A stretch of DNA of 42,550 nt. Origin: a virus. Lineage: Duplodnaviria > Caudoviricetes. Under the pieces are notes generated by a model. The model was not told the origin of the DNA. It saw only the letters and a program-made list of their open reading frames with translations, and did not search any database. Of this stretch, positions 1 through 42,550 are shown one piece after another. Numbering within the stretch: position 1 is the stretch's first letter; each line of letters begins with the position of its first letter. A program made the position numbers and the translations under genes. The stretch lies in IMG/VR virus record IMGVR_UViG_3300037851_000840, positions 1-42,550 of that record, one strand, 5' to 3'.

Positions 1-99
1 ATAATCGTCTTTCCAACTAAATCTTTGAACTTCATTTCTTCCTCCAGTCTGGCGTCAGTGTTTTGGCTTGTCCGAAACACTGCAAAAGATCAACCTAAC
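1..99. repeat. Direct repeat of 38766..38864 (5' part of duplicated cassette A)
   Basis: 99 bp identical to 38766..38864; identity stops right after CCTAAC, i.e. at the G of the minus-strand GTT core. Confidence 0.95.
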
Positions 100-145
100 A
101 ACAAATTAAGCGGCGTTGTCCGACCGCTTGAATGCCCGGTTGGAA
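93..145 (-). mobile_element. attC site 1 (53 bp)
   Basis: Minus strand TTCCAAC-CGGGCATTCAAGCGGTCGGACAACGCCGCTTAATTTGTT-GTTAGGT: R''/L''/L'/R' layout like short aadA-type attC. Confidence 0.88.
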
Positions 146-293
146 CTCTTTCGGAAATTTTCGGGTGTTTTGTGGTCAATGCCTAAAAAACGTAATTATT
201 ACAGATATTTGGTATTGACTTTTCCCCGAAAATATGATATGTTCTAAATTAGTTTTATCGTATTTCACTCTGTTCCGTATTTCACTCTTCCAA
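99..293 (-). mobile_element. ORF-less gene cassette (195 bp)
   Basis: Begins G|TTGGAA (294..288), complementary to its own attC R'' TTCCAAC (145..139); no ORF inside. Confidence 0.75.
215..243 (+). promoter_or_regulatory. Sigma70-type promoter, antisense to the array
   Basis: TTGACT-17 bp-TATGTT with extended -10 TG. Confidence 0.65.
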
Positions 294-368
294 CGATAGA
301 AATAAGCGGCTGAGGAAGGCGCAGAATGTACTTTTAATCAACTTTTTTTTATATTTGGTTTTTTTCAT
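282..368 (-). CDS. 28-aa basic leader ORF reading through the half attC
   Basis: GGAGG RBS then ATG at 368; MKKTKYKKKLIKSTFCAFLSRLFLSLEE. Confidence 0.35.
   Translation of the reverse strand: MKKTKYKKKLIKSTFCAFLSRLFLSLEE
288..330 (-). mobile_element. Right-half attC (L'-R' only) at the head of the array
   Basis: Minus strand GCGCCTTCCTCAGCCGCTTATTTCTATC-GTTGGAA; no complementary left arm upstream. Confidence 0.65.
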
Positions 369-417
369 AATATCCTCCATTTGCCATGTAGCGGACAGTC
401 CGTCCGCATTGTAAATT

Positions 418-1298: not shown

Positions 1299-1306
1299 AA
1301 AATTTT

Positions 1307-1729
1307 TTATTTTCCGGTTGAACCGTAACCTCCTGCGCCTCGGAGGGTTGGGGTAAGGGTTTCAACCTCTTTCCATATGATTTCTGGTTTTTGTACGATG
1401 ATGATTTGGCCGATTCTATCCCCTATTTCATATTTTTTGCGTGCGGTTTGCATTCGGTAAAATTTGAATAAAACTTCTCCCCGGTAGTTTGAATCTAAAA
1501 TTCCCATGCCATTGCTTAATAAAAGGCCGTAATCGGCCACAGAGGATCGGGCTGCCAGCAGGCCGACTGAGTCTTTTGGCAATTCAATGGCCAGGCCTGT
1601 GCCTATGATCAAAAGATCCATTTCGTGAATTTGTGCGGCAAACAGATCAAACGCTGCCGCTCCGTCTGTGGCTTGCAAGGGGGGTTTAGCGTTTGGGTGT
1701 AGCTTTTTGTATTTGATTCGGATGGTCAT
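1307..1729 (-). CDS. dut: Trimeric dUTPase
   Basis: Motifs AAAFDL, ARSS, GILDSNYRGE, GDRIGQ, RGAGGYGSTG. Confidence 0.95.
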   Translation of the reverse strand: MTIRIKYKKLHPNAKPPLQATDGAAAFDLFAAQIHEMDLLIIGTGLAIELPKDSVGLLAARSSVADYGLLLSNGMGILDSNYRGEVLFKFYRMQTARKKYEIGDRIGQIIIVQKPEIIWKEVETLTPTLRGAGGYGSTGK

Positions 1730-2185
1730 TTAGTATTCTCCTCTTTTGATTTTGATGGCCGTGCCTTTTGAAATTTTATATTCTCTGCAAATGTGGGTTA
1801 GGGATAGAGTGCTAAAATCTTCTCTGTTTCGTATGGTTTCACTTAATGCTGCATATTTTTTTCTAAGAGAATTTTTAGGTGCAAAAATATCTTGATTTTT
1901 GCTTTGTCTGACCCGGATCAACTCTGCGCATGATCCGCAATAACGGCTTTCTGAGGTGGTGCGATTGGTGCAGCCAGGAAAAATACAGATTGATGCTGAT
2001 TCTGTTTTGTAAAAGGTTCTTTGCCTGCGCTCGAAACAGATGTTTCCATCCATGATCGGCGGAAACATATCCTCCATTGCCAGGGCATAATCCCAGGGAA
2101 TATTGCGATTCATACATGACATGCATTCAAGGCATGAGTCTTTGTCATGGTCTATATTGCTGCAAGAAAAGCACGGACTTCTCAT
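1730..2185 (-). CDS. Cys-rich (Zn-finger) hypothetical protein with C-terminal HTH-like end
   Basis: SPCFSC, CMSC, CIFPGC..YCGSC; abuts dut. Confidence 0.65.
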   Translation of the reverse strand: MRSPCFSCSNIDHDKDSCLECMSCMNRNIPWDYALAMEDMFPPIMDGNICFERRQRTFYKTESASICIFPGCTNRTTSESRYCGSCAELIRVRQSKNQDIFAPKNSLRKKYAALSETIRNREDFSTLSLTHICREYKISKGTAIKIKRGEY

Positions 2186-2226
2186 TTTTTCTCCTCTCTT
2201 TTCCTCTCTTCAGATGTTGTGAAATA

Positions 2227-2252
2227 CGGGGGATAAAAAAATTTATCCCCCG
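2227..2252. terminator. Intergenic hairpin
   Basis: CGGGGGATAAA-AAAA-TTTATCCCCCG, 11-bp perfect inverted repeat. Confidence 0.4.
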
Positions 2253-2285
2253 GTCTGATTGACACGGGGCTGGAGAGTACCCCTG

Positions 2286-2654
2286 TTACTTTTCCCGTTC
2301 AGACGTCCGGGTGGAGAGATCCGTCTCAGGAGGTGAGGACGCACAAATTTGAAGGGCCTGAATTGCCGTAAATAAGGTGATGGGCTGGGCCGGTTTATTC
2401 TGAGATTTTGCCTGCAGAATAAACCGAGCGATGTATGGGGTTGATGTTCGGGGGATTTGATGCGGGGAACTGATGAGAATCGGTGCTGTGGGCGGAGAGG
2501 TTTCTGTTTCATAACTTACGAACAAGGTATAGGTTTCGATCAAAATGCCGTCAATTGAAAGCTGAAAAGACACCTGCGGAAGAACGTCTTCAGCTATGAC
2601 CGGCGAAGCCAGAAGAAGAATGAGAAAGGCAATGATTTTTTTCATGGGATTCAT
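2286..2654 (-). CDS. Putative exported protein
   Basis: Signal-peptide-like MKKIIAFLILLLASPVIA-E. Confidence 0.55.
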   Translation of the reverse strand: MNPMKKIIAFLILLLASPVIAEDVLPQVSFQLSIDGILIETYTLFVSYETETSPPTAPILISSPHQIPRTSTPYIARFILQAKSQNKPAQPITLFTAIQALQICASSPPETDLSTRTSEREK

Positions 2655-2656
2655 CC

Positions 2657-3301
2657 TTATAGGGTTGTGATGTTTTTCAGGTTGAATGGTGGATCTATTT
2701 TTTTCCGCGTTCCGGTAAGCGGATGAATCAATTCGCCGTCATTGAGGATGGCGGTCATGATGGCGCTTGTGATGCGCACGTCGTTCATGCAGTAGGTAAT
2801 GAGCTGCCCAAATTCTTTTTTTTGGTATAAAACCGGAGCGAGGGCGCCGTTTCCGTTTTTGAGATAGGTTTCATGAAAATTCATTCGAGAAGTGTTTTCG
2901 AGTGAAATTCCATTCTTACCATAATGGACATCTACCGCGTCTGCGAGTTCTCTTTTGATGTCATATGATTTTTGATTGAGCAGATCTATAATTCCATTGC
3001 GGACGATGGCTTTTCCGCCTGAAAATTCATAGGCCAATACTTCATTATCAAAGCCTATGTTGTTAAACCCGGCGATAAAAGCATGACATTCAACTTCTTT
3101 TAGAAAATCAAAGAGGTTGTCGTCCATCCAAATGAAGGGTTTATATTCTTTCAGGGAATATCCGCAAATACAAGAGACTCCCATATTGGCGGTGTCGTGC
3201 CATCCTTCGCAATATTCAATTCCTTCGATGCGCGGCTGGCCATCTACCGGGATGGCCTTTTTGATTTCGATATCATATATTAAGATGCTGTTGCTGGTCA
3301 T
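2657..3301 (-). CDS. DEDD/RNase H-fold 3'-5' exonuclease
   Basis: ExoI IYDIE, ExoII GFNNIGFD, ExoIII YCMNDV; likely start MTSNS at 3301 rather than 3544. Confidence 0.82.
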   Translation of the reverse strand: MTSNSILIYDIEIKKAIPVDGQPRIEGIEYCEGWHDTANMGVSCICGYSLKEYKPFIWMDDNLFDFLKEVECHAFIAGFNNIGFDNEVLAYEFSGGKAIVRNGIIDLLNQKSYDIKRELADAVDVHYGKNGISLENTSRMNFHETYLKNGNGALAPVLYQKKEFGQLITYCMNDVRITSAIMTAILNDGELIHPLTGTRKKIDPPFNLKNITTL

Positions 3302-3611
3302 GGGGTCTCTCCTTTTTTTGGGTGGCAATGGTATAAAACCCTTCGCAATCGGACGATTCCAGGGTTGCGTTGGGGATGAAATCAAGGGCTGTGTCTTGAT
3401 GCTTGCCATAGATTGAAAACAGGCGGTAGAGAACGCCGCCGGGCACTTGAAGGGCTTCGCCGATTTCCATCCAGTCTCCGCTTTCGGTTGTGATTCGGAA
3501 GAGCGGTTCGATGCGGAATTGAATTTTCGCATCTTTTGATTCATGGCGTTTTTGCCGGTTGAATTCGCTCACCGTCAGGGTTTCAATCTTGCAATGATTG
3601 AGATTGATCAT
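3273..3611 (-). CDS. Hypothetical phage protein
   Basis: 112 aa; ATGA overlap with the cro-like gene. Confidence 0.6.
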   Translation of the reverse strand: MINLNHCKIETLTVSEFNRQKRHESKDAKIQFRIEPLFRITTESGDWMEIGEALQVPGGVLYRLFSIYGKHQDTALDFIPNATLESSDCEGFYTIATQKKERPHDQQQHLNI

Positions 3612-3769
3612 TTTTTCCCCATTTCAGATCGAAAAAAATTTTCGATCTTTTTAGATTTGGTTTTTCCGGAGAGAAAATTGGAAATTGCCGCGTCTGAAAC
3701 TTTCAGTTTTTGGGCAATTTCTCTTTGACGAATGTTGTGGCGCATAAGCCACAGTCTGATTTTTTTCAT
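3608..3769 (-). CDS. Cro-like XRE HTH protein (53 aa, not in the ORF track)
   Basis: MKKIRLWLMRHNIRQREIAQKLKVSDAAISNFLSGKTKSKKIENFFRSEMGKK; AAGGTG RBS; divergent from the repressor-like HTH. Confidence 0.85.
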   Translation of the reverse strand: MKKIRLWLMRHNIRQREIAQKLKVSDAAISNFLSGKTKSKKIENFFRSEMGKK

Positions 3770-3788
3770 AAACACCTTCAAAAAAAGG

Positions 3789-3873
3789 TTGAAAACCTGA
3801 GAACATATAGATATGCTCAGGTTAAAAGTTTAACTGGGCAGATTTAATAACACCCATTTGAGAAGGTTGTCAA
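3789..3873. promoter_or_regulatory. Genetic switch: face-to-face promoters and operator-like inverted repeat
   Basis: Plus TTGAAA-17-TATGCT (3789..3817); minus TTGACA-18-TATTAA (3873..3844); inverted repeat AACCTGAG..CTCAGGTT (3794..3823). Confidence 0.6.
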
Positions 3874-3880
3874 GCAAAAA

Positions 3881-4616
3881 ATGCACTCAAAAGAGAGAAT
3901 AAAGCAAATTCGTAAAGTTTTGGGTTTAAGTCAGAAAGATTTTGCAACAAAAACGGGAATTAGTTATCGTTCAATCCAAAATAATGAAGATATTCCTAAA
4001 GTACCGCCTTTTCCCAAACTGTCTTACCAGCTACCCGAAATTCAATATATTTCAATTGAGCAACAGACGGCGCTATTGAGCGCTATTCCTGCTGGGGATC
4101 GTCCTGTCTTTGAATTTCTATTTGAATATGGATTGAGAGTGTCGGAGGTCTGCGGTCTGCAAAAAGATTGCCTCTCAGAAAATGAGGTGAAAATTTCCAG
4201 GGCATTTACGCGGGGAGAATTGAGGGAAGAAACTAAGGGGAAAAAAGATAGGCATTATCCCCTATCAGATTATGCCAGGGAAGTTTTGGGCAGGGCGCGG
4301 CTGAATTTTTCACCTTATATATTTGTGCGCTCTAATGGCAAAAACTATGACACGAAGTCTCTGAATAAGATATGGCACAAGGCAGAGGCAGAGACGGGGA
4401 TCAAGATCAAATTGCAGAATGCGGCGCGTCATTCACTAGGGTGTCAGTTGGCGGATATAGGAGTGGATTTTTGACCTGATCAGGGAGACGCTATGGCACT
4501 CAAACCAAATCATGACCAGGCGTTATGTGAAACGCAATTTGATCAAAATAAACGAGGCATTAGAGCTTAGAAGGGGTGTGCTAATCCCCTTCAAAAAAGA
4601 GAAAGTTGGGAAGTAG
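3881..4616 (+). pseudogene. XRE repressor N-terminus fused to a frameshifted tyrosine integrase catalytic domain
   Basis: HTH RIKQIRKVLGLSQKDFATKTGISYRSIQ, then YGLRVSEV and ARHS; stop at 4472 in a T5 run; the shifted frame continues DLIRETLWHSNQIMTRRY to TAG 4616. Confidence 0.85.
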
Positions 4617-4676
4617 TGGGAACTTTTTTTTTATTGATGAAATATTTAATGATTTCAATTATAATTTTTTAGGGTA

Positions 4677-4704
4677 GTGGGTTCGACTCCCGCCGCCTCC
4701 ATCA
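4677..4704 (+). mobile_element. attP core matching a tmRNA (ssrA) 3' end
   Basis: GTGGGTTCGACTCCCGCCGCCTCCATCA: T-arm plus acceptor strand CGCCTCC-A typical of tmRNA; directly downstream of the integrase in AT-rich DNA. Confidence 0.75.
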
Positions 4705-5004
4705 AGATATTCTTGATTTTCTTGATAAAAACATCGACAAAAATAGTTTGAAAATGGTTGGTAAAATAAATTAAATAATTTTACAAATTGAATAGACTCC
4801 CCTTATTATAGAAATAGATAATTTCCTCCCCCCCTATTCCCCCCTCATTAAAAATAAAACCAGAAAGTCACATGATCCAAATCAAGGTACTTTCTGAGAC
4901 CTTGAACAAGGGTCACCCGCCCCCGCCGCTTTGAGTGCGTTCATTTTTGAAAATGGAATGGAAAATGGAAAAAACCATTCCAAGAACAAAAAAGGAGCGC
5001 CTCA

Positions 5005-6579
5005 ATGGAGTATGAGCGTTTATTCAATTATGTTTCAATGGGAGCCCTGGGGGATGGGCTTTTATATCGAGATATTCATCAGCAGGATTTTATTTTTGAT
5101 GAAACCGGCGGGAAAAATGGCTTTTGGAATTTTTGGAATGGCCACTTTTGGCAAGAAGATTTTCGCCATCACAATCAAATAGCAGTTGAAAACGTCTCCC
5201 GGCAATATCTGGAGTTGAAAACCTGGCTCCAGAAAGACGACGCTGGCCGAAAATTCCTCTCTGAGAAATTCCAAGATCCGGACGATCAAAAAGAATTCCT
5301 CAAAACCATCACAAAAAAAATAAAATCTCTCAGAAATTCAGATGGCCGCAGGGCATGTCTGGAATTCGCTCACACCTGTGAAAATGGTTTATCAATCCTA
5401 TCTGAGCAATTTGATTGCCAGACTCACCTTCTCCCTGTTCAAAATGGCGTTTTAGATCTGAGACTTGGGGAAATCTCCCCTGGCCGTCAGTCTGATTTTT
5501 TAAAGAAAGCGGCGACGGTTGAGTGGCAAGGCTGCAATGCGCCCTGCCCTAACTGGAAACGCTTTCTTTTGGAAATCATGGATGGCCGGGAGGAAATGGT
5601 CACCTTCCTGCAACGGATTTTCGGCATGGCGCTTGCAGATCTCAACCGGCAGGCGGCGTTTTTCATTTTGATTGGCCGAGGCCGAAACGGAAAAACCCTT
5701 ATGTTTGAAACCATTTCAAACATTTTGGGGAATCTGGCCGGGCCAATCCGCATCGAAATGTTGCTCGATTCTGGAATGACCGCCAACCCAGACGCCCCAA
5801 CCCCTTCCCTGGTAACCCTCAAGGGCCTTCGCATGGCGTTCGCTCAAGAACCCAGCGAACGCGCCACCTTTTCAACCGCAAAAGTAAAGTGGTTGACAGG
5901 CCGGGACACCCTCCGGGCCAGGCTGCCCTATGCTGGGCTTGAAATGACTTTTAACCCTTCGCACACCCTCTTTATTTCTGCAAATAATTTGCCACATTTC
6001 GATGGCACTGACTTCGCTTTCAAAGAGCGCTGCCACGTCATCCCGTTTGAATTCTCTTATGTCGCCCGCGAACCCAGACAAGCGTTTGAGAGAAGGGCCG
6101 ACCCTGACCTTCCCAATAAACTCAAAGAAGAATACCCCGGAATCCTTGCCTGGCTTGTTCAGGGAGCGATTGACTTTATAGGAGAATGGAAAGGTCAAAT
6201 TGTTTCCCCTGCGCCGGTTTTAGAAGCAACATCAAAGTATTATGAAGCTGAGGATTGGCTTCAAGGTTTTCTCGATGCCTGTTGTATCATTGATCATGAT
6301 CCAGAAACCAAAACCGGCGCAACGGTTCTACATCATGCCTTTTGCGGCTGGTGGATAAAACACGTTTCCGCAAAACCGAGAACGCAAAGAGTGTTCGGCG
6401 CGGCGCTTTCCAAAATTTTTAAGCGTGGCAAAAGCGGAGACAAGCACTATGAAGGGTTGACCTTGAACAATGTTGGATATGATTTTTATAATAAATATCA
6501 AGTAATCATTGAGACCAGAGGCAATAAAGAAACAAAATCCAATCCGGACTATCCGGACGATTCTGGACGATTGCTTTAA
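5005..6579 (+). CDS. P4/D5-family SF3 helicase (D5_N plus ATPase; no N-terminal primase)
   Basis: FWNGHFW, VQNGVLDLRLG, Walker A GRGRNGKT, VKWLTGRDTLRAR, SANNLP. Confidence 0.92.
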   Translation: MEYERLFNYVSMGALGDGLLYRDIHQQDFIFDETGGKNGFWNFWNGHFWQEDFRHHNQIAVENVSRQYLELKTWLQKDDAGRKFLSEKFQDPDDQKEFLKTITKKIKSLRNSDGRRACLEFAHTCENGLSILSEQFDCQTHLLPVQNGVLDLRLGEISPGRQSDFLKKAATVEWQGCNAPCPNWKRFLLEIMDGREEMVTFLQRIFGMALADLNRQAAFFILIGRGRNGKTLMFETISNILGNLAGPIRIEMLLDSGMTANPDAPTPSLVTLKGLRMAFAQEPSERATFSTAKVKWLTGRDTLRARLPYAGLEMTFNPSHTLFISANNLPHFDGTDFAFKERCHVIPFEFSYVAREPRQAFERRADPDLPNKLKEEYPGILAWLVQGAIDFIGEWKGQIVSPAPVLEATSKYYEAEDWLQGFLDACCIIDHDPETKTGATVLHHAFCGWWIKHVSAKPRTQRVFGAALSKIFKRGKSGDKHYEGLTLNNVGYDFYNKYQVIIETRGNKETKSNPDYPDDSGRLL

Positions 6580-6814
6580 AGATCGTCCAAAACCATAACC
6601 TTCTTTAAAATCAACAAAAGTCGTCTGCCTTTGGGACGATAGACCGTGAACCAGGGGAAATCCCCTGGGGAAATTTTATAAAATTTTTTCCTTATCATTT
6701 TTCTATATATATCATCCATCATCCAGAGAGAGAGAGATTTTTCTGGTAGTTTTAAAAGGTTGCGGGTTTGGACGATCAAACAAAGGATCGTCCAGGATCG
6801 TCCAGATCATCCAG
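6542..6814. repeat. Iteron cluster, probable replication origin
   Basis: Repeated GGACGAT/ATCGTCC(A) in both orientations flanking an AT-rich core at about 6670..6720. Confidence 0.7.
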
Positions 6815-8278: not shown

Positions 8279-8638
8279 ATGATGCTGACACCTATTATAG
8301 AATTATCTGAAGAAGTCATCGGAAAAATTTGTTATGGGATTGACCTGGGCGCAGATTTTGAGGTGGCATGTATGTCGGCAGGGGTCATGCCTGAGACAGC
8401 AGCCAGTTGGATTCGCACCGGGATGGAAAAAAAGGAAGGACTTGAATATGCTTTGTATTTTTTGGTCATGCAAACCAGGGCGAGCTTCGAGGTTTCTCAA
8501 CTTGAGTTCCTCAAAAAAAACGGCGGTGTTACCGAAGCAAAGTATATGCTTGAAAAAACAAACCCAGGGAAATGGTCAGAATCCCATCAAAAAGCAACAG
8601 GGAAAAAGAAACCGAAAAAGATTGAGTTTCAAGGATGA
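8279..8638 (+). CDS. Hypothetical HTH-like protein of the packaging region
   Basis: ACMSAGVMPETAASW helix pair; YMLEKTNPGKW ending. Confidence 0.6.
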   Translation: MMLTPIIELSEEVIGKICYGIDLGADFEVACMSAGVMPETAASWIRTGMEKKEGLEYALYFLVMQTRASFEVSQLEFLKKNGGVTEAKYMLEKTNPGKWSESHQKATGKKKPKKIEFQG

Positions 8639-9246
8639 AATTTATGCAGATTGAAACCTGGCCGATTGACCGGATCATCCCGTATCATAAAAACGCTAAA
8701 ATTCACAAGGTTGACCAGATCGCCGCATCTATTCGGGAATTCCGAATAGATCAACCGATTGTGGTGGATCAAAACGGCGTGATCATCAAAGGTCATGGCC
8801 GTTTGAAAGCGGCCAAAAAGCTGGGGTTAGCAGAATTTCCGGTTGTGGTGCGGAAAGACCTGACTGCCGAGCAGGTTCGCCTGGCTAGAATTGCAGATAA
8901 CCGGGTCAGTGAAGGCGGGTGGAACCCTGAACTTTTGCAGGATGACCTGAAATCTCTGTTTCAGGCGAGTCCTTCTTTAGACTTTTCTTCTTTTGGTATT
9001 TCAAATGATTGGCTTAGCCAGTTTGCCTCGGAATCCTCTGTTTTTAATTTTTCGGAGAATTGCAATGAACCTGCTGAAAAAACGGATGAATCCGCGCAGA
9101 AAAAACCGGTTCATGAAATGAAATTGATTCCGATTTTGATGGAATTATCGCCATCTGAATTCAAAAAATGGAAAGAATTGAAAAAAAAATATCAGGTAAG
9201 AACCGATAAAGAATTGATTCTCAAATTGATCGGGGAGGAGTTATGA
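8635..9246 (+). CDS. ParB/Srx N-terminal domain protein
   Basis: IIPYHKNAKIH, PIVVD..IIKGHGRLKAA, RIADNR. Confidence 0.9.
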   Translation: MKFMQIETWPIDRIIPYHKNAKIHKVDQIAASIREFRIDQPIVVDQNGVIIKGHGRLKAAKKLGLAEFPVVVRKDLTAEQVRLARIADNRVSEGGWNPELLQDDLKSLFQASPSLDFSSFGISNDWLSQFASESSVFNFSENCNEPAEKTDESAQKKPVHEMKLIPILMELSPSEFKKWKELKKKYQVRTDKELILKLIGEEL

Positions 9247-10653: not shown

Positions 10654-11280
10654 GTGGATGACTTCCTTAAAGGCATTTTAAACCGGGCAGGCGGTGAAAT
10701 CGTAGGTTTGTTCGATGATTCGGAAAAAGAACCGGATCAACCGGATTTCCCTACCCTTTCTCATGTATTGCGGTTTTTGAGAGAGAAGGGGTATAAGGTT
10801 AAGAAATCAAAGCTATATCAAGATCGTAAAAAGGGATTGATCGAGGTTCGGCCAGATGGTTCGGTTTCTGGCAAGGCGGCTTTGGCGTATGCTGCCAGTT
10901 TGGAAAAAGAAGGAGGTGATCGGTCTGATATTCTTTCTGAAAATGCAGATCGAAAGTTTCAGGCAGAAATTCATAAAATCGTTGAACAAACCAAATCTAT
11001 TACCCTGCAAAGAGAGATTCTGGAAGGCAAATATATCCCCAGAACCGATGCCATTCGGCAGCGTGTGGATCAAATCACGGTCATTCAACTGAACCTTCGC
11101 AGTTGGATTGATCGCAAAGCCGGAGAATGGCGGAAATTTGAGGGAGCGGAAAAGGCGTTTAAGATCATGATTCATGATCAGCTAGATCAGGTTTTCAATG
11201 ACCTTGCAAAATCCGACAACTTCCGGGTTGAATATTTCGATGAAACTGAAGAGGGTGATGATGAAAAAAATGACTCATAA
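10654..11280 (+). CDS. Probable terminase small subunit (Nu1-like)
   Basis: HTH-like N-terminus, coiled coil, REILEGKYIPR; upstream of the GpA terminase. Confidence 0.7.
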   Translation: MDDFLKGILNRAGGEIVGLFDDSEKEPDQPDFPTLSHVLRFLREKGYKVKKSKLYQDRKKGLIEVRPDGSVSGKAALAYAASLEKEGGDRSDILSENADRKFQAEIHKIVEQTKSITLQREILEGKYIPRTDAIRQRVDQITVIQLNLRSWIDRKAGEWRKFEGAEKAFKIMIHDQLDQVFNDLAKSDNFRVEYFDETEEGDDEKNDS

Positions 11281-11518
11281 GTATGTATGGAAAAACAACG
11301 AGAAGCGAAAAACTCTTTTCAACCGGGCTTGTGTAGTTTTGAATCGTGGCAAAATGAATAGTATTTGCATAGAATTTGAAAACGGGCGCCGTGAAATTGT
11401 ATCTCGATATTCAGTTAGACGCATTAAAAACGATTCATGTACCAGTTAGATCAGGTTTTCAATGACCTTGCAAAATCCGACAACTTCCGGGTTGAATATT
11501 TCGATGAAACTGAAGAGG
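11183..11518 (+). repeat. 72-bp direct repeat (11183..11254 = 11447..11518)
   Basis: TAGATCAGGTTTTCAATGACC...GAAACTGAAGAGG present twice, 264 bp apart. Confidence 0.93.
11258..11449 (+). CDS. Small hypothetical protein between the repeats
   Basis: ..HKYVWKNNEKRKTLFNRACVVLNRGKMNSICIEFENGRREIVSRYSVRR; start uncertain. Confidence 0.65.
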   Translation: MMKKMTHKYVWKNNEKRKTLFNRACVVLNRGKMNSICIEFENGRREIVSRYSVRRIKNDSCTS

Positions 11519-15224: not shown

Positions 15225-15272
15225 AATATAATATAGAAAAAAAGGTTTGTCAAGGGAAATTTTTCATGTCAA
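15225..15272 (-). promoter_or_regulatory. Repeated promoter module 3
   Basis: TTGACA-17-TATATT with a second TTGACA 19 bp upstream. Confidence 0.85.
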
Positions 15273-15466
15273 ACATTTTTTTGTTTTTTATTTTTTTTCA
15301 TTACATCTGCAGGAGATAGGGTTTTAAACAGGTTTCTTTTTTTATCAATCATATAAATTTCAGTTGAATTTTTTGGTAGCCAATAAGCGACTTCATCTTT
15401 TATGAAGGTAAAATCACCATTTGAGCTTTTAGTGGCAATTTGTTTGAATTTTTCTATTGCTTTCAT
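15269..15466 (-). CDS. Small hypothetical protein
   Basis: 65-aa ORF in the AT-rich island. Confidence 0.6.
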   Translation of the reverse strand: MKAIEKFKQIATKSSNGDFTFIKDEVAYWLPKNSTEIYMIDKKRNLFKTLSPADVMKKNKKQKNV

Positions 15467-15977: not shown

Positions 15978-16025
15978 AATATAACTCACAGAAAAACTTT
16001 TGTCAACAAAAATATTTCATGTCAA
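15978..16025 (-). promoter_or_regulatory. Repeated promoter module 2
   Basis: TTGACA-17-TATATT with a second TTGACA 19 bp upstream. Confidence 0.85.
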
Positions 16026-16103
16026 AATAATTTTTTTTAATGGTCTTGAACTATGATTTGAATGATTGCTTTGAAAACTATGATTTCATGATCATGCAAA
16101 CAA

Positions 16104-16681: not shown

Positions 16682-16729
16682 AATATACATCTTGAAAAAA
16701 GGTTTGTCAAGTGAAATTTTTCATGTCAA
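16682..16729 (-). promoter_or_regulatory. Repeated promoter module 1
   Basis: TTGACA-17-TATATT with a second TTGACA 19 bp upstream. Confidence 0.85.
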
Positions 16730-16862
16730 AAAAAATTTTTTTTTAATGGTCTGAACCGCAGATGGCCATCATGGAAACCTGTGGTCAAATTTAATCTGCC
16801 TTTCTTTTCCCCTTCCTTTTTATAGTCAGTTCGTTATTCCAAAAATTTTAAGTTTAAAAAAT

Positions 16863-21068: not shown

Positions 21069-21214
21069 GTCTGAACCGCAGATGACCATGATATTCATGA
21101 TTTTCATGATATTCATGATTTTTCATCAAGGCAATCATGCAAATCACGGTCATCTGCGGTTCAGACAACAATCTTTGAACCACAGATACCCATGATGACC
21201 ATGATGAACATGAT
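21069..21214. repeat. Miniature inverted-repeat element with 9-bp internal periodicity, followed by a half copy
   Basis: 19-bp TIR GTCTGAACCGCAGATGACC (21069..21087 / 21148..21166) enclosing CATGATWTT repeats; partial copy at 16749. Confidence 0.8.
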
Positions 21215-25967: not shown

Positions 25968-26039
25968 AGGCGCAAGCAAAGTGACAAAGGCGCAAAGTTT
26001 TTTTGCTTTGTGCCTCCGCGCCTCTGCGCCTTTGTTACT
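25968..26039. repeat. 8-bp periodic inverted repeat element
   Basis: GGCRCARA units facing TGYGCCTC units; relatives at 31615..31692 and 35930..35980. Confidence 0.7.
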
Positions 26040-26056
26040 TCTTTTAAGGAACTCAA

Positions 26057-31266: not shown

Positions 31267-31610
31267 TTACAACCTACAATTGCAAAGACCTGATTGCGGA
31301 AAGCGGAGACCGGGTGCTTTCGTGTATTGATATCAATACGCTGGTGGAAGGCGACCGCGCTTTTGTTGTGATGAATGATGAAGTCTTGCAGAGAAAAAAC
31401 CTGTTGTTTTTTGAGTTTGTTGCTGCAAGCACCAAGGCAAACAATACCTCGGTGCATCCATATCATGTGCGTCCGAATAATTACAGCGGAGCAGGAGTAT
31501 GGGAAGAATGCGAAGCGGAAACCGGCGGGCGGATTTTGTATGGAGCCGGTGATCCGCCGGACCCGTCTGAACTTCCGGACGGGGTGTTGTATGTGAAGTA
31601 TATTCCTTAA
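31263..31610 (+). CDS. Hypothetical tail-region protein
   Basis: 115 aa, ATGA overlap. Confidence 0.65.
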   Translation: MITTYNCKDLIAESGDRVLSCIDINTLVEGDRAFVVMNDEVLQRKNLLFFEFVAASTKANNTSVHPYHVRPNNYSGAGVWEECEAETGGRILYGAGDPPDPSELPDGVLYVKYIP

Positions 31611-31614
31611 AAAA

Positions 31615-31692
31615 AGGCACAAAGTGACAATGTTACAAAGGCGCAAAGTTTTTTTACTTTGCGCCTCTGTGCCTCTGTAACTCTGTGCCTTT
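31615..31692. repeat. 8-bp periodic inverted repeat element
   Basis: GGCACAAA GTGACAAT GTTACAAA GGCGCAAA followed by mirrored units. Confidence 0.7.
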
Positions 31693-31713
31693 CTTAAACA
31701 AGGTGAGCTGATT

Positions 31714-35126: not shown

Positions 35127-35933
35127 ATGAAAGAAATGAAGGAAGATTCAAAAAATCTGCAGGATATGAATCGGATCAACATTGATCTTGCAGATAAACT
35201 GGGTACGCATATTCAAAAGCATGGGTTCGCAATTCTTTTTTTTCTGATGCTGCTGGGCGTTGGAGGATCAATCATCCCTGAATTTATTTCGATGTTTCGA
35301 GAGAGCCATCGGGAAGAAAAAAAGATTCGGGATAAAATTTTTGAGACGCATGCAGAACTTTTGAAACGGTTTGAATCTCTTGATAGAATTTATTCTCAAA
35401 TTGATTTGAGGCTTCGAGACATTGAAGAAAGAAGCGGGAAAGGAAATGAGGTTTCAAAGCTGGAAAAGAATGCCGTGATTTCTGCCAGAATCGAAGTGCT
35501 TCTTTCTGAGAATCCGCAGCCGGGAGTCAAAAAAGCCTGGTTTGCGAGGCTTCATAATGGTTCAAGCGATTTTGCAAATCGTCCTTTTGCTTTTTTTAGT
35601 GTTTCGCAAGAGGCAATTTTTGACGGGCTGCCCACGCGGGATCGAAACCAAAGAATTTTGGTTGAGTTTTTGGGAGATGCTTGGCAAGAGCTTTTGAAAG
35701 GGAAAAGTGCGATATATGACTTGAATTTAGGCACTCGAAACAGTTGGGCGGAAAAAAATATGACCTTTGGCGGAACTCAAAAAACTTTGATTTATCCGGT
35801 TTTTGGCGGAAAAAGTCAGAAGACAATCGTCGGGCTGGTTGCGTATGAGATTGGCGAAACCGGAGACATTTGGCTGTTAAAGGTTCCATTGGCTAAAGTT
35901 TCTTTGAATATTTCTGGGTTGATGGATTTGTGA
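35127..35933 (+). CDS. Single-TM membrane protein (holin candidate)
   Basis: TM FAILFFLMLLGVGGSII, coiled coil, LHNG motif in a soluble C-terminal domain. Confidence 0.5.
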   Translation: MKEMKEDSKNLQDMNRINIDLADKLGTHIQKHGFAILFFLMLLGVGGSIIPEFISMFRESHREEKKIRDKIFETHAELLKRFESLDRIYSQIDLRLRDIEERSGKGNEVSKLEKNAVISARIEVLLSENPQPGVKKAWFARLHNGSSDFANRPFAFFSVSQEAIFDGLPTRDRNQRILVEFLGDAWQELLKGKSAIYDLNLGTRNSWAEKNMTFGGTQKTLIYPVFGGKSQKTIVGLVAYEIGETGDIWLLKVPLAKVSLNISGLMDL

Positions 35934-35986
35934 CAGAGGTACAGAGGCGCAAAGGCACAGAGGCACAAAGGGAAAGAGGCATCAAG

Positions 35987-38155: not shown

Positions 38156-38509
38156 TTAAGTCTCCTTTTGGTTCTGTTCCCGGTCGAGTGGCTGGTTATG
38201 GGTTTTTTTGGAAGATTTTTTAATCAACCACGCGTGATATTCCTTTGCTGTATGGACACAATGTCTATTATCAAGAGTACATTTACCATCTTGAAAACAT
38301 GGACAGCACACATCATTACAAAATGTTACCATACTTATACCTCCATCGTCCGGTTCATGCACTTGTTCGGCGCATTTTTTCTCAACAAAACCGACAAAAT
38401 CCCTCCCATTGCTATACATAAAACTTTTCGCCATCTCTCTATCGCTCGAAAAAACACCATCCCAATACTCTTCATCAGCAATCAACGCTTTTAATTCTGT
38501 AATATCCAT
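38156..38509 (-). CDS. Hypothetical protein, probably two fused cassette ORFs
   Basis: GAGGAGG RBS; internal GGAGG plus ATG (MVTFCND) just after a half attC. Confidence 0.55.
   Translation of the reverse strand: MDITELKALIADEEYWDGVFSSDREMAKSFMYSNGRDFVGFVEKKCAEQVHEPDDGGISMVTFCNDVCCPCFQDGKCTLDNRHCVHTAKEYHAWLIKKSSKKTHNQPLDREQNQKET
38177..38201 (-). mobile_element. Left-half attC remnant
   Basis: CCATAAC-CAGCCACTCGACCGG at the ORF end; no right arm. Confidence 0.5.
38347..38371 (-). mobile_element. Left-half attC remnant
   Basis: GCCGAAC-AAGTGCATGAACCGGACG; no right arm. Confidence 0.55.
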
Positions 38510-38526: not shown

Positions 38527-38581
38527 CATGTACATTAAGTTAAGTGGCGGCTTTGCCGTCCACTTGAACGCCTTGTTAGGT
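38527..38581 (-). mobile_element. attC site 6 (55 bp), non-canonical R'
   Basis: ACCTAAC-AAGGCGTTCAAGTGGACGGCAAAGCCGCCACTTAACTTAAT-GTACATG. Confidence 0.85.
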
Positions 38582-38800
38582 TTCTTCGATTTCCACAAGC
38601 CCTTGTTCATCTTCTTGCAAAAAAACATAGGCCGGGTATTCATCCTCAGAATTACCAGAGTAGCTACCATAGGATGACACCACAAAACAATGAGAGCCAT
38701 CTTGGAACCCCAGCTTTGCCCACGCCTCATCGTCGTACTCTGGTTTTTTCATCAGTTGTGCGCTAATAATCGTCTTTCCAACTAAATCTTTGAACTTCAT
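38576..38800 (-). CDS. Cassette A: 74-aa acidic hypothetical protein
   Basis: GGAGG RBS, MKFKDLVGKTII; stop TAA inside R''; cassette starts G|TTAGGTT, complementary to AACCTAAC. Confidence 0.8.
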   Translation of the reverse strand: MKFKDLVGKTIISAQLMKKPEYDDEAWAKLGFQDGSHCFVVSSYGSYSGNSEDEYPAYVFLQEDEQGLVEIEET

Positions 38801-38857
38801 TTCTTCCTCCAGTCTGGCGTCAGTGTTTTGGCTTGTCCGAAACACTGCAAAAGATCA

Positions 38858-38967
38858 ACCTAACGTTCGTTTTCACCTGCCTTGAAAGGCGGGCGCAACG
38901 AGCTTTAATTTTCAGCAACCAAAGTTCCAGCCCGCCTTTCAAGGTCAGGTGCAAAACGTTGTTCTGC
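38858..38967 (-). mobile_element. attC site 5 (110 bp)
   Basis: GCAGAAC-AACGTTTTGCACCTGACCTTGAAAGGCGGGC...GCCCGCCTTTCAAGGCAGGTGAAAACGAAC-GTTAGGT. Confidence 0.9.
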
Positions 38968-39654
38968 TGTGTTTTCAATTCCGTCGAACAATTTGCCCTG
39001 ATAGGAATCAGGGTACACTACCGGCTTAAATAGATTCTGTTGTAATTCCGCCTGTCTGATACGCTTTTCAGCTATGACGAAGTAATCCGGCGAAATTTCA
39101 CAACCAATAAAAGAACGATTTATTTTCAGACACGCTTTCCCCACTGTGCCGCTTCCCATGAAAGGATCGAATATGACGTCCCCTTCATCTGAAATGATTC
39201 TGGCAATATGAGAAGCCCACATCACCGGCTTTGGGCATGGATGACCGTTTGCCGTTTTATCCTTGACGAAGGTTGCATGGAAATAATCGCTCTGCCGTTC
39301 ATGCTTTCCGGTTTTCCCGTAAATCAAAACCGGCTCCCAATTACTGAACCCGAAAGGTGAATGTCCTACAGAAAACGGTTTATGCCAACATAAAATCCAA
39401 ACAGGATCTTTTATGCGGCTCCACATGCTCAAATTCTTGGTGCCACAACTAAAGGCGATAGTTTTAGAACAAATTCGCTCTAATTCAGATAACCAATAAC
39501 CGCACCATTCAGCATAATCCTTGCGATTATCGTCGGTTGTTATCCCGTAATCAATGCCGACATTGTAGGGTGGGTCAGTAATCACGGCGTCAACGCTTTT
39601 ATCTGGCAGCGTTCGCATGTATTCAAGGCAATCGCCGTTGTATAACTTAACCAT
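38905..39654 (-). CDS. Beta-class N4-C/N6-A DNA methyltransferase cassette
   Basis: GDCLE, ITDPPY, HPCPKP, DPFMGSGT; C-terminus reads into attC5. Confidence 0.93.
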   Translation of the reverse strand: MVKLYNGDCLEYMRTLPDKSVDAVITDPPYNVGIDYGITTDDNRKDYAEWCGYWLSELERICSKTIAFSCGTKNLSMWSRIKDPVWILCWHKPFSVGHSPFGFSNWEPVLIYGKTGKHERQSDYFHATFVKDKTANGHPCPKPVMWASHIARIISDEGDVIFDPFMGSGTVGKACLKINRSFIGCEISPDYFVIAEKRIRQAELQQNLFKPVVYPDSYQGKLFDGIENTAEQRFAPDLERRAGTLVAEN

Positions 39655-39670
39655 GTTAAAACCTCAAGCA

Positions 39671-39778
39671 GCAGAACGTTTCATTTCACCGGCTTGGAAA
39701 GGCGGCGCAACTAAGCCTGAAATACAGCACCGGATTTTCTCGCCGCCTTTTCAAGTCCGGTGCAAATGATTGTTATAC
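39671..39778 (-). mobile_element. attC site 4 (108 bp)
   Basis: GTATAAC-AATCATTTGCACCGGACTTGAAAAGGCGGCG...CGCCGCCTTTCCAAGCCGGTGAAATGAAAC-GTTCTGC. Confidence 0.9.
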
Positions 39779-40219
39779 TTCCGTGCTTTTCTCCCACAAT
39801 GGCAAGAACGCCCGTTCTAAATACCACTGGTGCGCCTTTTTTGAATGAAAACCTAATGACGTTTCATGCCATTTGCTCAACCCGAAATTCGCGCTTGAAA
39901 TGTATATCGTTGACGGTTCAATCATCAGAATCTTTGAATGAACGCTTTTATTCAGCGCTATTCTGATATTTTGAAACCGATTTTTGATCCGCCCGGCGAT
40001 TGTAGCAAATTTCTCGTGAGCAATCAAAAAAATATCATACGGACGCCGAGAAAATTGAGTTTCGACATATTCCATGTTTGGCAGAGAATAGGTAATTATC
40101 CGCACGGTTCCTTCTTGTTTTGACAACTGGGAAAGTTTCATCGCCCAGGTTGCCCCACACGATAGCAATGCGTCATTGCACTTGAAAGCAATTCCTACAC
40201 TGTTAGTTTTAAACGCCAT
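39773..40219 (-). CDS. PLD/Nuc-like single-domain protein cassette
   Basis: HSKILMIE..YISSANF (HxK motif, D replaced by E); stop inside R'' of attC4. Confidence 0.8.
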   Translation of the reverse strand: MAFKTNSVGIAFKCNDALLSCGATWAMKLSQLSKQEGTVRIITYSLPNMEYVETQFSRRPYDIFLIAHEKFATIAGRIKNRFQNIRIALNKSVHSKILMIEPSTIYISSANFGLSKWHETSLGFHSKKAHQWYLERAFLPLWEKSTEV

Positions 40220-40239
40220 GTGCTTACCACAAGAAGGAA

Positions 40240-40297
40240 GTATAACAAAAAGTTAAGCGGCGGCGCTTTGGCCGTCCGCTTGAACGGCTTGTTAGAC
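40240..40297 (-). mobile_element. attC site 3 (58 bp)
   Basis: GTCTAAC-AAGCCGTTCAAGCGGACGGCCAAAGCGCCGCCGCTTAACTTTTT-GTTATAC. Confidence 0.92.
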
Positions 40298-40831
40298 ATC
40301 CCATTTCCCGGTATTGTCTTTTTCAAACGTCTTTTTTAATCCAAAATTCCCTTGCGTATGAAAGATAACAATACCTTCCGGTTTCATAAATCCTGGCGCT
40401 GCAATGCTTCCGCTAATCCTCAACTGATTCATAATATCCTCTACATTCAGCGTATCAAACGTCCCCCTCCATAACACAGGGACAACATGACAACAGATAG
40501 GACGGTTTTGTTCCCAACGTGCCGTGTTGAACAGGCTGAATCGTTTTTCACTCAGTCCATACCTGCGTTGTATCCCTTGCCCCCACCACTCTCCAAAATG
40601 ACGACCAACACCTAATTGCATAAGATCCTCTTTACGGTCATGCGCCCATCGAGAAAACCCGTAATTATCATCTTGCGGAGTAATCCACCGGGTACGGCTT
40701 CCGGTTAAAAATTCGCCGTCTTCCGTAATATGGATTTGGGCGTTCGTGCCATCGATTTTTTCAGTGACAATGACTTCACGGCTAAACCGCGATATTTTCG
40801 GAAACTTCATAAATTCTGGTTGCATAGACAT
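40292..40831 (-). CDS. RNA ligase (Rnl2-like adenylation domain) cassette
   Basis: Motif I TEKIDGTN, GSRTRW, FGEWWG, FSLFN, PEGIVI; stop inside R'' of attC3. Confidence 0.88.
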   Translation of the reverse strand: MSMQPEFMKFPKISRFSREVIVTEKIDGTNAQIHITEDGEFLTGSRTRWITPQDDNYGFSRWAHDRKEDLMQLGVGRHFGEWWGQGIQRRYGLSEKRFSLFNTARWEQNRPICCHVVPVLWRGTFDTLNVEDIMNQLRISGSIAAPGFMKPEGIVIFHTQGNFGLKKTFEKDNTGKWDV

Positions 40832-40843
40832 AATGTTCTCCTT

Positions 40844-40921
40844 TCAAAGTAGTTGGATTTTTGCGGTAGCTCCACGACGGAGCTTATTTACGATAGATTG
40901 CTTTGCTTGTTTCGTTTTCAT
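40844..40921 (-). CDS. 25-aa leader ORF
   Basis: GGGAGG RBS; MKTKQAKQSIVNKLRRGATAKIQLL; stop overlaps the ligase RBS region. Confidence 0.35.
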   Translation of the reverse strand: MKTKQAKQSIVNKLRRGATAKIQLL

Positions 40922-40946
40922 ATTATCCTCCCGCCTCATCGAAGAG

Positions 40947-41030
40947 GCATAACAAATTGATATAAAAGAAATATTTTTTTTGCGCTTTTTGAGAGCAAAA
41001 TAAAAAAATCTTTTTTAACTGCTGTCAATG
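40947..41030 (-). mobile_element. attI-like site with upstream AT-rich promoter region
   Basis: TTTTATATCAATTT-GTTATGC core with no attC hairpin; TTGACA at 41028..41023, weak -10. Confidence 0.45.
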
Positions 41031-41078
41031 CGTTTTAAACGACTCACAAAACATGAATCAAGAAAGAGGAAATCGTTA

Positions 41079-42230
41079 TTAGAAGTCAAGTTTCAAAACC
41101 TCCGCTATGTGCAATCTCACGTTATCAGAAATATGCTCCTTGCTTGATTCAATAATTTTGGTTATATTTTTCTTGCAATCTTCAAGAAAAGAAAAAACTT
41201 TTGTTGCTTCACTGCTATTTTTTAATCCGTTTAACAGCGTTTTTATCTCGTTGAACTTAATATAAGTTCTACCATAAGAACATCTCTTTATATCTTGTTT
41301 TTCTTCCCAATCCATTCTCCTGAATTGTTCGCCGGATGGCTGATAAACAAATTCTTCATTTTGAAAATTTTTATTAACACTGATAACATCAAATAATGCA
41401 TTGGCTAATACATCTTTCGATGTTCGGTAATTATCAATTATAGTTTGACACTCCCGTAAATTCAACTTTGGCACAGTTTTAGAAATATTATAAATCTTTT
41501 CGTATGGCAGCAAATAAAATTCTGCAAATTTATATGCAAAAAATTCAGGGACTTCATTTTCATCAATTCTGGATTTCCAATATAGGTTAGGAAGAAAGAT
41601 ATCTATTTGGACTTCAGTATCAATATCAAACAAGAGATGTGCGATTTCGTGTGCAAGAGAAAAGCGTATCCTCTGAGGCGGCTTGGAAATATTGATACAT
41701 ATAGCTACATGCTTATTGTTGTTAATGATAAAAGCGTCAAATTCAACATGGCTACTTTTGATAGGTAAAACAGGTATTGAAAAATTGGAAATAAAATTTT
41801 CAGGAGTCCCATATTTTAATTGAATTTTTGATGCAAAAGCAGCAGCCTCAGAAATAATATCAGCACGCTCATAACTCTTATTGCTGATCCGTGTCATTTT
41901 TGGAATGTTAATAGTCGGTAAAAAATCTTCAATTGATAAAAAAATATCTTCAATCTCTGATGCAAATTTTTGAATATTAAAATCTACATTTCGGAATGCC
42001 AATTTTGGCGTTGGATATTCTTCACTGTATATAAATCGAACAGGGTTTATTCCAAATCCATTACAAATTCTTGTTATTTCAGAAAAAGTAATTTCTCTCT
42101 TTTTTGACAAATATCCCTTAATAATCTCATCCGAAATTTTGATAAGATTGCAGACTTGATTCGCTGATATATTTCGCCTCTTAATTTCATACAAAATGCG
42201 ATTTGCTATTTCTTTACGAATACTTGTCAT
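41079..42230 (-). CDS. XRE HTH plus ImmA/IrrE metallopeptidase
   Basis: N-terminal HTH, RIRFSLAHEIAH (HExxH), EFFAYKFAEFYLLP; AGGAG RBS; AT-rich. Confidence 0.88.
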   Translation of the reverse strand: MTSIRKEIANRILYEIKRRNISANQVCNLIKISDEIIKGYLSKKREITFSEITRICNGFGINPVRFIYSEEYPTPKLAFRNVDFNIQKFASEIEDIFLSIEDFLPTINIPKMTRISNKSYERADIISEAAAFASKIQLKYGTPENFISNFSIPVLPIKSSHVEFDAFIINNNKHVAICINISKPPQRIRFSLAHEIAHLLFDIDTEVQIDIFLPNLYWKSRIDENEVPEFFAYKFAEFYLLPYEKIYNISKTVPKLNLRECQTIIDNYRTSKDVLANALFDVISVNKNFQNEEFVYQPSGEQFRRMDWEEKQDIKRCSYGRTYIKFNEIKTLLNGLKNSSEATKVFSFLEDCKKNITKIIESSKEHISDNVRLHIAEVLKLDF

Positions 42231-42252
42231 TCTCACTCCTTTTAACGGGTGT

Positions 42253-42390
42253 TCACAATAGAAATAAGTTGATTTCTATTTTCGTGATGCACCAGGAACA
42301 CAACGAGACTACAGTATCAATTTCTTCAGGCTGGAATTCCCCTAACACTTTCGATGTTTCGCTCTTATCATTTATACAAATTTTTATCAT
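42253..42390 (-). CDS. 45-aa ORF, possibly a truncated cassette gene
   Basis: MIKICINDKSETSKVLGEFQPEEIDTVVSL..., first ORF after attC2. Confidence 0.35.
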   Translation of the reverse strand: MIKICINDKSETSKVLGEFQPEEIDTVVSLCSWCITKIEINLFLL

Positions 42391-42418
42391 ATTTCCATTC
42401 ACCTTTCATTTACGAGAG

Positions 42419-42473
42419 GCCGAACATTAAGTTAAGTGGCGGCTTTGCCGTCCACTTGAACGCCTTGTTAGGT
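42419..42473 (-). mobile_element. attC site 2 (55 bp)
   Basis: Same as attC6 up to ..TTAATGT, then R' GTTCGGC. Confidence 0.88.
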
Positions 42474-42550
42474 TTCTTCGATTTCCACAAGCCCTTGTTC
42501 ATCTTCTTGCAAAAAAACATAGGCCGGGTATTCATCCTCAGAATTACCAG
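42424..42550. repeat. Direct repeat of 38532..38658 (3' part of cassette A)
   Basis: 127 bp identical. Confidence 0.95.

What the first reader, a model, noticed from the sequence alone, without database searches (positions are those of the whole stretch)
38533..40246. Each cassette's first bases complement its own R'' box, the signature of circular-cassette insertion
Seen: PLD cassette starts GTTATACTTCC against R'' GGAAGTATAAC; MTase starts GTTCTGCTG against CAGCAGAAC; cassette A starts GTTAGGTT against AACCTAAC; the empty cassette starts GTTGGAA against TTCCAAC. In the integrated array the R'' and R' of each site mismatch, but they pair perfectly once the cassette is circularised at G|TT. 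Established: IntI-type excision and insertion leaves exactly this pattern. It argues these are real recombination sites rather than terminators.
Basis: partly seen in the sequence, partly recalled or inferred. Interest (0 to 1): 0.85.

Follow-up and report, generated by a model that had tools for sequence, protein, structure and literature searches.

The report
Integron cassettes inside an integrase-less phage
A freshwater tailed phage carries several small genes, among them a predicted DNA methyltransferase, as integron-type cassettes whose ends match exactly as cut-and-reinsert recombination would leave them; with no integron enzyme of its own it likely borrows its host's, a new example of an arrangement already reported in a few phages.

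Summary
On the minus strand each of four cassettes begins with the exact complement of its own R'' box (11, 9, 8 and 7 bp, against 2-3 bp as they lie). The six sites have paired L boxes with two bulged bases: they are attC sites, not just terminators. One unit (40246-42424) breaks the rule, and half-sites at both ends show decay. The window is a near-complete lambda-like phage without IntI; its only tyrosine recombinase is broken. Cassette A occurs twice, and the repeat ends exactly at the crossover points, as copy-paste integron recombination would leave it. A contig break in one run fits an alternative cassette order, and the gene-less cassette is several-fold more abundant than the phage there. 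Two other near-complete virus records without a tyrosine recombinase carry similar arrays. Best reading: a phage CALIN, likely built and reshuffled by a host IntI in trans (0.7). Recombination was not tested and the host was not found. Phage CALINs with methyltransferase cassettes are published (PMC9892861), and this scan has noted phage attC arrays on other DNA before. New member of a known kind.

The parts
38533..38863 (-). cassette A, copy 1 (331 bp): 74-aa protein of unknown function (38576-38800) plus its attC
   Evidence: look-alike clusters 85-88% viral
38527..38581 (-). attC of A, copy 1; bulged G and T on the bottom strand; ends G|TA at the junction to phage DNA
   Evidence: z -4.0
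38864..39676 (-). MTase cassette (813 bp): N6/N4 DNA methyltransferase 38905-39654, reading into its own attC
38858..38967 (-). attC of the MTase cassette, 110 bp, bulged C and T on the bottom strand
   Evidence: E 0.01, not in the training set; z -7.9
39677..40245 (-). PLD cassette (569 bp): single-domain phospholipase-D-fold protein 39773-40219, likely a nuclease (inferred)
39671..39778 (-). attC of the PLD cassette, 108 bp, same type as the MTase site
   Evidence: E 0.006; z -5.7
40240..40297 (-). attC behind the RNA-ligase-like gene
   Evidence: z -3.8
40246..42424 (-). composite unit Y that breaks the rule: cassette-like start with a 45-aa ORF, AT-rich HTH/M78 peptidase gene (41079-42236, 31% GC), RNA-ligase-like gene (40292-40831); likely two cassettes whose boundary was lost
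   Evidence: the 45-aa ORF has no homologue
42419..42473 (-). attC of A, copy 2 (identical body); 42424-42550 repeats 38532-38658
1..99 (-). start of cassette A, copy 2 (identical to 38766-38864, ending at the crossover G)
99..293 (-). gene-less cassette X (195 bp) with attC at 93-145; weak promoter-like match facing the other way at 215-243
   Evidence: its fold alone is weak (z -1.4)
288..312 (-). right-arm-only site (L'-spacer-G|TT at 294) in front of cassette X; head of the array
   Evidence: 16.2 bits; 0.25 such scores expected per strand; no hairpin
38345..38371 (-). orphan attC left arm (R''-spacer-L'') inside the ORF after the array; a weaker one lies near 38197
   Evidence: 20.2 bits, 0.05 expected per strand at 16 bits; the second 7.2 bits
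3881..4474 (+). broken lambda/Xer-type tyrosine recombinase (HTH fused to a catalytic fragment, last motifs in another frame); not IntI
4574..4704 (+). tmRNA-3'-end-like stretch beside the broken integrase, likely the phage's old attP
   Evidence: E 3e-4, below Rfam's cut-off

Best explanation
The sites are integron attC sites bounding real gene cassettes in a phage that has no integron integrase, and the array was likely built and reshuffled on the phage genome by a host IntI acting in trans. Shown: attC anatomy, cassette-end complementarity, an exact cassette duplication, absence of IntI, forward orientation inside the phage's leftward accessory region. Inferred: during infection or lysogeny, single-stranded phage DNA folds at the sites; host IntI excises the bottom strand of a cassette as a circle (R'' now pairs with the cassette's own start) and re-inserts it at G|TT of another site. 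The first cassette likely entered at a secondary site, later ones at attC sites or at the head site at 294; a copy-paste event would give the second A. The cassettes would be read from phage leftward promoters; the methyltransferase likely shields phage DNA from host restriction. Sites at both ends have since lost an arm, fixing their genes.
For: 4 of 5 distinct units obey the end rule, best of 120 permutations. 5 of 6 sites fold better than at least 199 of 200 shuffles. The 333-bp A repeat cannot be extended by one base at either end and both ends are crossover points. TIGR02249 finds nothing in the 96% complete record, PF00589 only the broken gene. Unique DNA inside and outside the array has like depth in both runs (X1 7-11 against 9.4). 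In X1 two contigs meet at 40219-40248, i.e. a branch three bases beyond the crossover at 40246; of the 7 sites in the window only attC X parts from this one at that base, which fits a PLD cassette placed directly behind X. Cargo is phage-type: A look-alikes are viral, RNA-ligase homologues lie in 94 phage records, homologues of PLD and A also occur in virus records without a cassette. Virus records G004 (95% complete; 6 attC, one body identical to attC A; rule met in 5 of 6) and G013 (complete) carry forward arrays and no tyrosine recombinase. Phage attC sites were recombined by IntI1 in 5 of 6 tests (PMC9892861); a bulged C in place of G costs little (PMC2727003); copy-paste duplication is documented (PMC8024014).
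Against: No host or host intI was found (0 matches in two scans of genome contigs). No joint or circle junction for PLD, MTase or A was seen in either run. The 40248 break is indirect: the other branch was not among the contigs laid, and run X1 may be the source sample. Unit Y fails the rule and the terminal junction G|TA fits neither GTT nor the attG consensus GWT (10.1101/2022.09.11.507474, passages). Half-sites show decay, so activity may be past. The MTase-to-A junction rests on the window's assembly alone (no contig across it). 0 of 4 terminase-relative records searched whole have an attC, so no relative shows gain or loss at this locus.
Confidence: 0.7

Rival explanations
1. The array was assembled in a host chromosomal integron and taken into the phage in one or two blocks by illegitimate recombination; the end signature is inherited and nothing is shuffled on the phage.
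For: Cassette X is several-fold more abundant than the phage in both runs, so it also lives elsewhere in the community. Vibrio prophages carry captured pieces of chromosomal arrays (PMC9892861). Both ends of the array are decayed.
Against: Cargo is phage-type and matches the backbone in GC (43-45% against 46%); phage-type DNA is interleaved with cassettes; A is duplicated across the block with exact ends; no bacterial genome holds these sites (weak evidence).
Confidence: 0.13
2. The sites are recombined by a tyrosine recombinase other than IntI, such as the phage's own (now broken) integrase or a Xer-like enzyme of the host.
For: A tyrosine-recombinase fragment is on the contig; 2 of 6 sites have a bulged C rather than G; earlier unchecked notes of this scan describe an integron-like system with a Xer-type enzyme.
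Against: The fragment lies next to a tmRNA-like attP, as ordinary phage integrases do, and does not score on the IntI model. Four sites are textbook attC; G004 and G013 carry such arrays with no tyrosine recombinase at all.
Confidence: 0.07
3. The two copies of A are an assembly figure-eight: a 38.8-kb phage with one A plus a separate 3.9-kb circle or polymorphic block (A-Y-PLD-MTase), joined through the repeat.
For: Both contig ends lie inside the repeat (127 and 99 nt); one X2 contig runs backbone-A-X without the block.
Against: Depth of the block is near that of the backbone in both runs; at depth 3-6 lost branches can give the X2 path. Even if true, the junctions sit at attC crossover points, so cassette recombination is still needed.
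Confidence: 0.07
4. The hairpins are transcription terminators or RNA-processing sites, and the end matches are chance.
For: 2 of 6 sites (X and Y) fit a terminator pattern; attC sites may also act as weak terminators (PMC9892861).
Against: 4 of 6 lack a T tail; the complement lies 195-813 bp away at the cassette start; bulged bases are on one defined arm.
Confidence: 0.02

Closest known systems
Phage CALINs (clusters of attC lacking an integrase), Qi et al. 2023, PMC9892861 (read: main text parts 1-4 of 7, through the conclusion; supplement searched by terms)
   Same: Several attC-bounded single-gene cassettes in a phage genome, no intI, N6/N4 methyltransferase cargo, genes and sites in one orientation as in phage TJE1.
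   Different: Six full sites and two to three half-sites; an exact duplicated cassette; a gene-less cassette; cassette-end matching and sample-level variation were not analysed in the parts I read.
Integron cassettes and attC sites, Bouvier et al. 2009, PMC2727003 (read: passages and section 20)
   Same: R and L boxes, unpaired spacer, two bulged bases, 7-11 bp self-pairing of circular cassette ends.
   Different: The two long sites have C, not G, as first bulged base; the terminal site ends G|TA.
Cassette insertion at attG secondary sites and SALINs, bioRxiv 10.1101/2022.09.11.507474 (read: passages)
   Same: Offers the route by which cassettes reach DNA with no integron platform, and notes loss of attC by slippage.
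   Different: The terminal junction here does not fit GWT; the target is a phage genome.
Copy-paste cassette duplication, Souque et al. 2021, PMC8024014 (read: passages)
   Same: First-and-last copies of one cassette around the rest of the array.
   Different: There a class 1 integron with attI and IntI1 in cis; here neither.
Gene-less promoter cassettes of Vibrionaceae superintegrons, bioRxiv 10.1101/2023.11.21.568050 (read: abstract and outline)
   Same: A short cassette without a gene, repeated many times, with a promoter-like motif.
   Different: The promoter here is only a consensus match (3 found, 1.4 +/- 1.1 expected) and faces against the array.

Membership tests
attC site | R'' ending AAC and R' starting GTT | tested here: met
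   5 of 6 sites; A copy 1 has GTA
attC site | L''/L' pairing with bulged bases on the R''-L'' arm of the bottom strand, and an unpaired central spacer | tested here: met
   6 of 6 show two bulges six bases apart; first bulge G in 4, C in 2; X folds weakly alone
integron cassette | first bases complement own R'' (circular form pairs over 7-11 bp) | tested here: met
   4 of 5 distinct units; Y fails
attC site | bottom strand recombined by an IntI | not testable with these tools
   needs a conjugation or excision assay
attC site | score on the curated attC model of IntegronFinder or HattCI | not testable with these tools
   Rfam gave no attC family; my own model R1 was trained partly on three of these sites
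complete integron | intI gene next to the array | tested here: not met
   TIGR02249 0 matches in the record
complete integron | attI site and Pc promoter at the head of the array | tested here: inconclusive
   the head site at 294 looks like an attC right arm; no host attI to compare
CALIN | two or more attC within about 3 kb of each other, no intI | tested here: met
   five sites within 38527-42473 and a sixth across the contig ends
attG secondary-site insertion | GWT at the target junction | tested here: not met
   terminal junction reads GTA at 38533
phage integrating as one giant cassette | backbone starts with the complement of a closing R'' and ends in a full attC | tested here: not met
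   backbone start pairs 2 bp with every R''; the closing site has no left arm
intrinsic terminator | GC-rich stem followed by a T run | tested here: not met
   2 of 6 sites only

The most novel reading that the evidence does not exclude
Environmental phages run a live, platform-free cassette system: their own accessory genes (methyltransferases, nucleases, small proteins) are packaged as attC cassettes, shuffled and duplicated on the phage genome by borrowed host IntI within one lake population, exchanged with other phages through a shared pool, and later fixed by loss of one attC arm. Phage genomes would then be a place where cassettes are made, not only carried.
Probability: 0.3. Interest if true: 0.7.

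Novelty: new member of a known kind. Interest (0 to 1): 0.4.

Why it matters
It is an unusually legible phage CALIN: every step of a cassette's life is visible (intact sites, exact duplication, likely reordering in the sample, decay to half-sites). If host IntI is shown to act on it, phages gain a borrowed engine for swapping counter-defence genes such as methyltransferases, and the open question of where cassette genes come from gets a testable source, because homologues of these genes occur in virus records both as cassettes and as plain genes. As it stands it adds one good case to a published class.

Tried and rejected
Host search: two scans of genome contigs (cassette X, attC A body) gave 0 matches; the metagenome scan for X gave 1 match that is not a cassette; X was not found in viral contigs, plasmids or phages. 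Close kin: terminase search gave 14 loci at 24-49% identity, none with an attC; 4 of these records searched whole had none; the gene at 37228 gave 4 weak hits only. The exact long-site pattern was found in no other viral contig or fetched locus. The idea that Y begins with a truncated cassette gene stayed untested: no homologue and only 4 hits with short repeated matches. Giant-cassette reading of the phage rejected. Reversed orientation, as in earlier notes of this scan, checked and not found here. Parts of the stretches not covered by X1 (361-5400; 38722-39303) are holes in the contigs read and prove nothing. No integration junction was seen at the tmRNA-like site. Literature: searches found no paper beyond PMC9892861 that studies attC arrays in phage genomes; subscription papers and bioRxiv supplements were not visible and may bear on novelty.

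Full report
Setting. The window is a whole 42,550-base virus record, 96% complete, classed linear. It encodes a lambda-like tailed phage: primase, terminase, portal, capsid-protease, tail and tape measure genes. Two freshwater runs hold it. The finding lies in a region of small minus-strand genes that runs from 3544 leftwards, across the contig ends, to 37586.

Observation. A scan for AAC...GT with a bulged L box gave six convincing sites, all with the minus strand as top strand: 93-145, 38527-38581, 38858-38967, 39671-39778, 40240-40297 and 42419-42473 (the other 17 candidates of that loose scan were not recovered by the model). For PLD, MTase, A and the gene-less cassette X the R'' box pairs with the cassette's own start over 11, 9, 8 and 7 bp, against 2-3 bp with the R' that follows in place. 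The true assignment is the best of 120 permutations over five units. The fifth unit, Y (40246-42424), pairs only 3 bp.

Are they attC sites? Bottom strands fold with paired L boxes, an unpaired spacer and two bulged bases six apart; the first is G in A (both copies), Y and X, and C in PLD and MTase. Five of six fold better than at least 199 of 200 shuffles; X alone is weak (19 of 200 shuffles as good). A model built from 21 short sites, three from this window, also finds the two long sites it was not trained on (E 0.006 and 0.01) and nothing else below E 2 except the sites' own opposite strands. Bouvier et al. report 9-11 bp self-pairing of cassette ends and little cost of a G-to-C change of the bulge (PMC2727003; passages and section 20). 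Only 2 of 6 sites fit a terminator pattern. Genes lie upstream of their attC on the top strand, the usual orientation, unlike the reversed phage arrays in earlier notes of this scan.

The array is larger than the finding. The contig's last 127 and first 99 bases repeat cassette A, and the repeat stops exactly at the crossover points on both sides. Closed into a circle of 42,657 bp, the order is: head site at 294, X, A, Y, PLD, MTase, A, then phage DNA. A position-weight scan trained on 62 sites from other loci finds a right-arm-only site at 294 (16.2 bits) and an orphan left arm at 38367 (20.2 bits; 0.05 expected per strand at 16 bits), with a weak one at 38197. The array therefore once reached further and is decaying at both ends. 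Y looks like two cassettes whose boundary was replaced by an AT-rich HTH/M78 gene (31% GC); this is inference, since the short ORF at its start has no homologue.

No IntI. The integron-integrase model finds nothing; the one tyrosine recombinase (3881-4474) is an HTH-fused fragment whose last motifs lie in another frame, beside a tmRNA-like 3' end. The backbone does not behave as a giant cassette.

Sample evidence (contigs only; X1 may be the source sample). Three of the four junctions of the A repeat are touched by contigs of X1 or X2; the MTase-to-A junction is not. Depth inside the block (7-11) is near the backbone's (9.4) in X1. Two X1 contigs overlap by 30 bases at 40219-40248, the mark of a branch at 40249, three bases beyond the crossover at 40246. 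A variant at 40218 would instead hit the PLD start codon. Among the window's seven sites only attC X shares exactly those two bases and then differs, so some molecules likely carry PLD behind an X-type site. The other branch was not among the contigs laid, so this is indirect. X1 also holds a second MTase allele with 130 bases replaced. Cassette X is covered by 18 short X1 contigs with depths up to 47, five times the phage, and one shows an X-type attC followed by an X-type start, i.e. a tandem or circular form. No joint for a PLD, MTase or A circle was listed.

Cargo and relatives. The methyltransferase is N6/N4 type and reads into its attC; three distant homologues among the 18 proteins I fetched end in the same attC-coded tail. 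Of 14 viral loci with a homologue, 3 obey the end rule over 10 bp; one of them, G013, is a complete 38-kb genome with a dense forward array and no tyrosine recombinase. G004 (55.6 kb, 95% complete) has six attC, one with a body identical to attC A, obeys the rule in 5 of 6 cassettes and has no tyrosine recombinase. I did not annotate the genes of these two records with profiles. Of 2 PLD homologue loci none is a cassette; of 2 A homologue loci one is partly cassette-like (5 bp) and one is not. A's look-alikes are 85-88% viral, PLD's mostly bacterial. Against: 14 terminase-relative loci, and 4 of their records searched whole, have no attC, and no host was found.

Mechanism. Shown: sites, cassette ends, duplication, lack of IntI. 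From established work: IntI excises the bottom strand as a circle and re-inserts it at G|TT, often leaving a copy behind (PMC8024014, passages), can insert at secondary sites (10.1101/2022.09.11.507474, passages), and recombines phage attC sites (PMC9892861). Inferred: a host IntI did this on the phage genome; the order suggests A was copied to the head and X added after it; the methyltransferase likely counters restriction. The terminal G|TA junction fits no published consensus I read and remains unexplained.

Novelty and verdict. Qi et al. found 17 CALINs in 10,705 phages, with five methyltransferase cassettes. Four searches gave no further study of phage attC arrays in the library held. This scan's notes already hold many such arrays (1449 findings with the words, 8 shown), none on this DNA. 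New member of a known kind; interest 0.4.

Noticed in passing
window 99-293; run X1 and X2: The gene-less cassette X is a multi-copy, variable repeat family in both samples (contig depths up to 47 against about 9 for the phage in X1), with short internal tandem repeats of varying number; it was found in no public collection searched.
   Followed up: partly
protein P0010 against window 38905-38967: A 90% identical methyltransferase ends in a peptide that fits an attC left arm lacking both bulged bases, as if the arm had been rewritten from the opposite arm or the inner site inverted; may also be a library artefact.
   Followed up: no
proteins P0077, P0079, P0106; window 39349-39481: Methyltransferase cassettes share their first residues and their attC-coded tail but differ in the middle; a second allele in X1 has 130 bases replaced there. 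Suggests swapping of the specificity region inside a fixed cassette frame.
   Followed up: partly
window 42246-42300: Strong hairpin (z -4.8) just ahead of the HTH/M78 gene, sharing an 11-base word with the head site at 294; X1 contigs branch at 42279 into other sequence.
   Followed up: partly
window 3881-4704: Broken integrase followed by a tmRNA-3'-end-like stretch; X2 carries the same sequence, so the break is not an assembly slip. With a ParB-like gene at 8635-9246 the phage may persist without integrating.
   Followed up: partly
L054 (G013) 1900-6600 and L055 340-3250: Dense forward cassette arrays of the bulged-C type in virus records, holding several methyltransferases and small genes; G013 is complete and has no tyrosine recombinase.
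   Followed up: partly
L019 2218-3900: Several cassettes of this array open with a similar leader holding a short inverted repeat.
   Followed up: no
L067 4200-5230: The homologue of gene A lies behind two cassette-like units bounded by a different, longer type of hairpin site; one obeys the end rule by eye.
   Followed up: partly
window 21069-21166, 25977-26047, 31607-31698, 35930-35980: Intergenic imperfect inverted repeats with an 8- or 9-base period in the late operon.
   Followed up: no
window 15225-15285, 15978-16038, 16682-16742: Three 61-base AT-rich promoter-like repeats in a gene-poor stretch between terminase and portal.
   Followed up: no
window 11179-11254 and 11443-11518: A 76-base direct repeat, 99% identical, at the end of the small-terminase-like gene and of the next ORF.
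   Followed up: no
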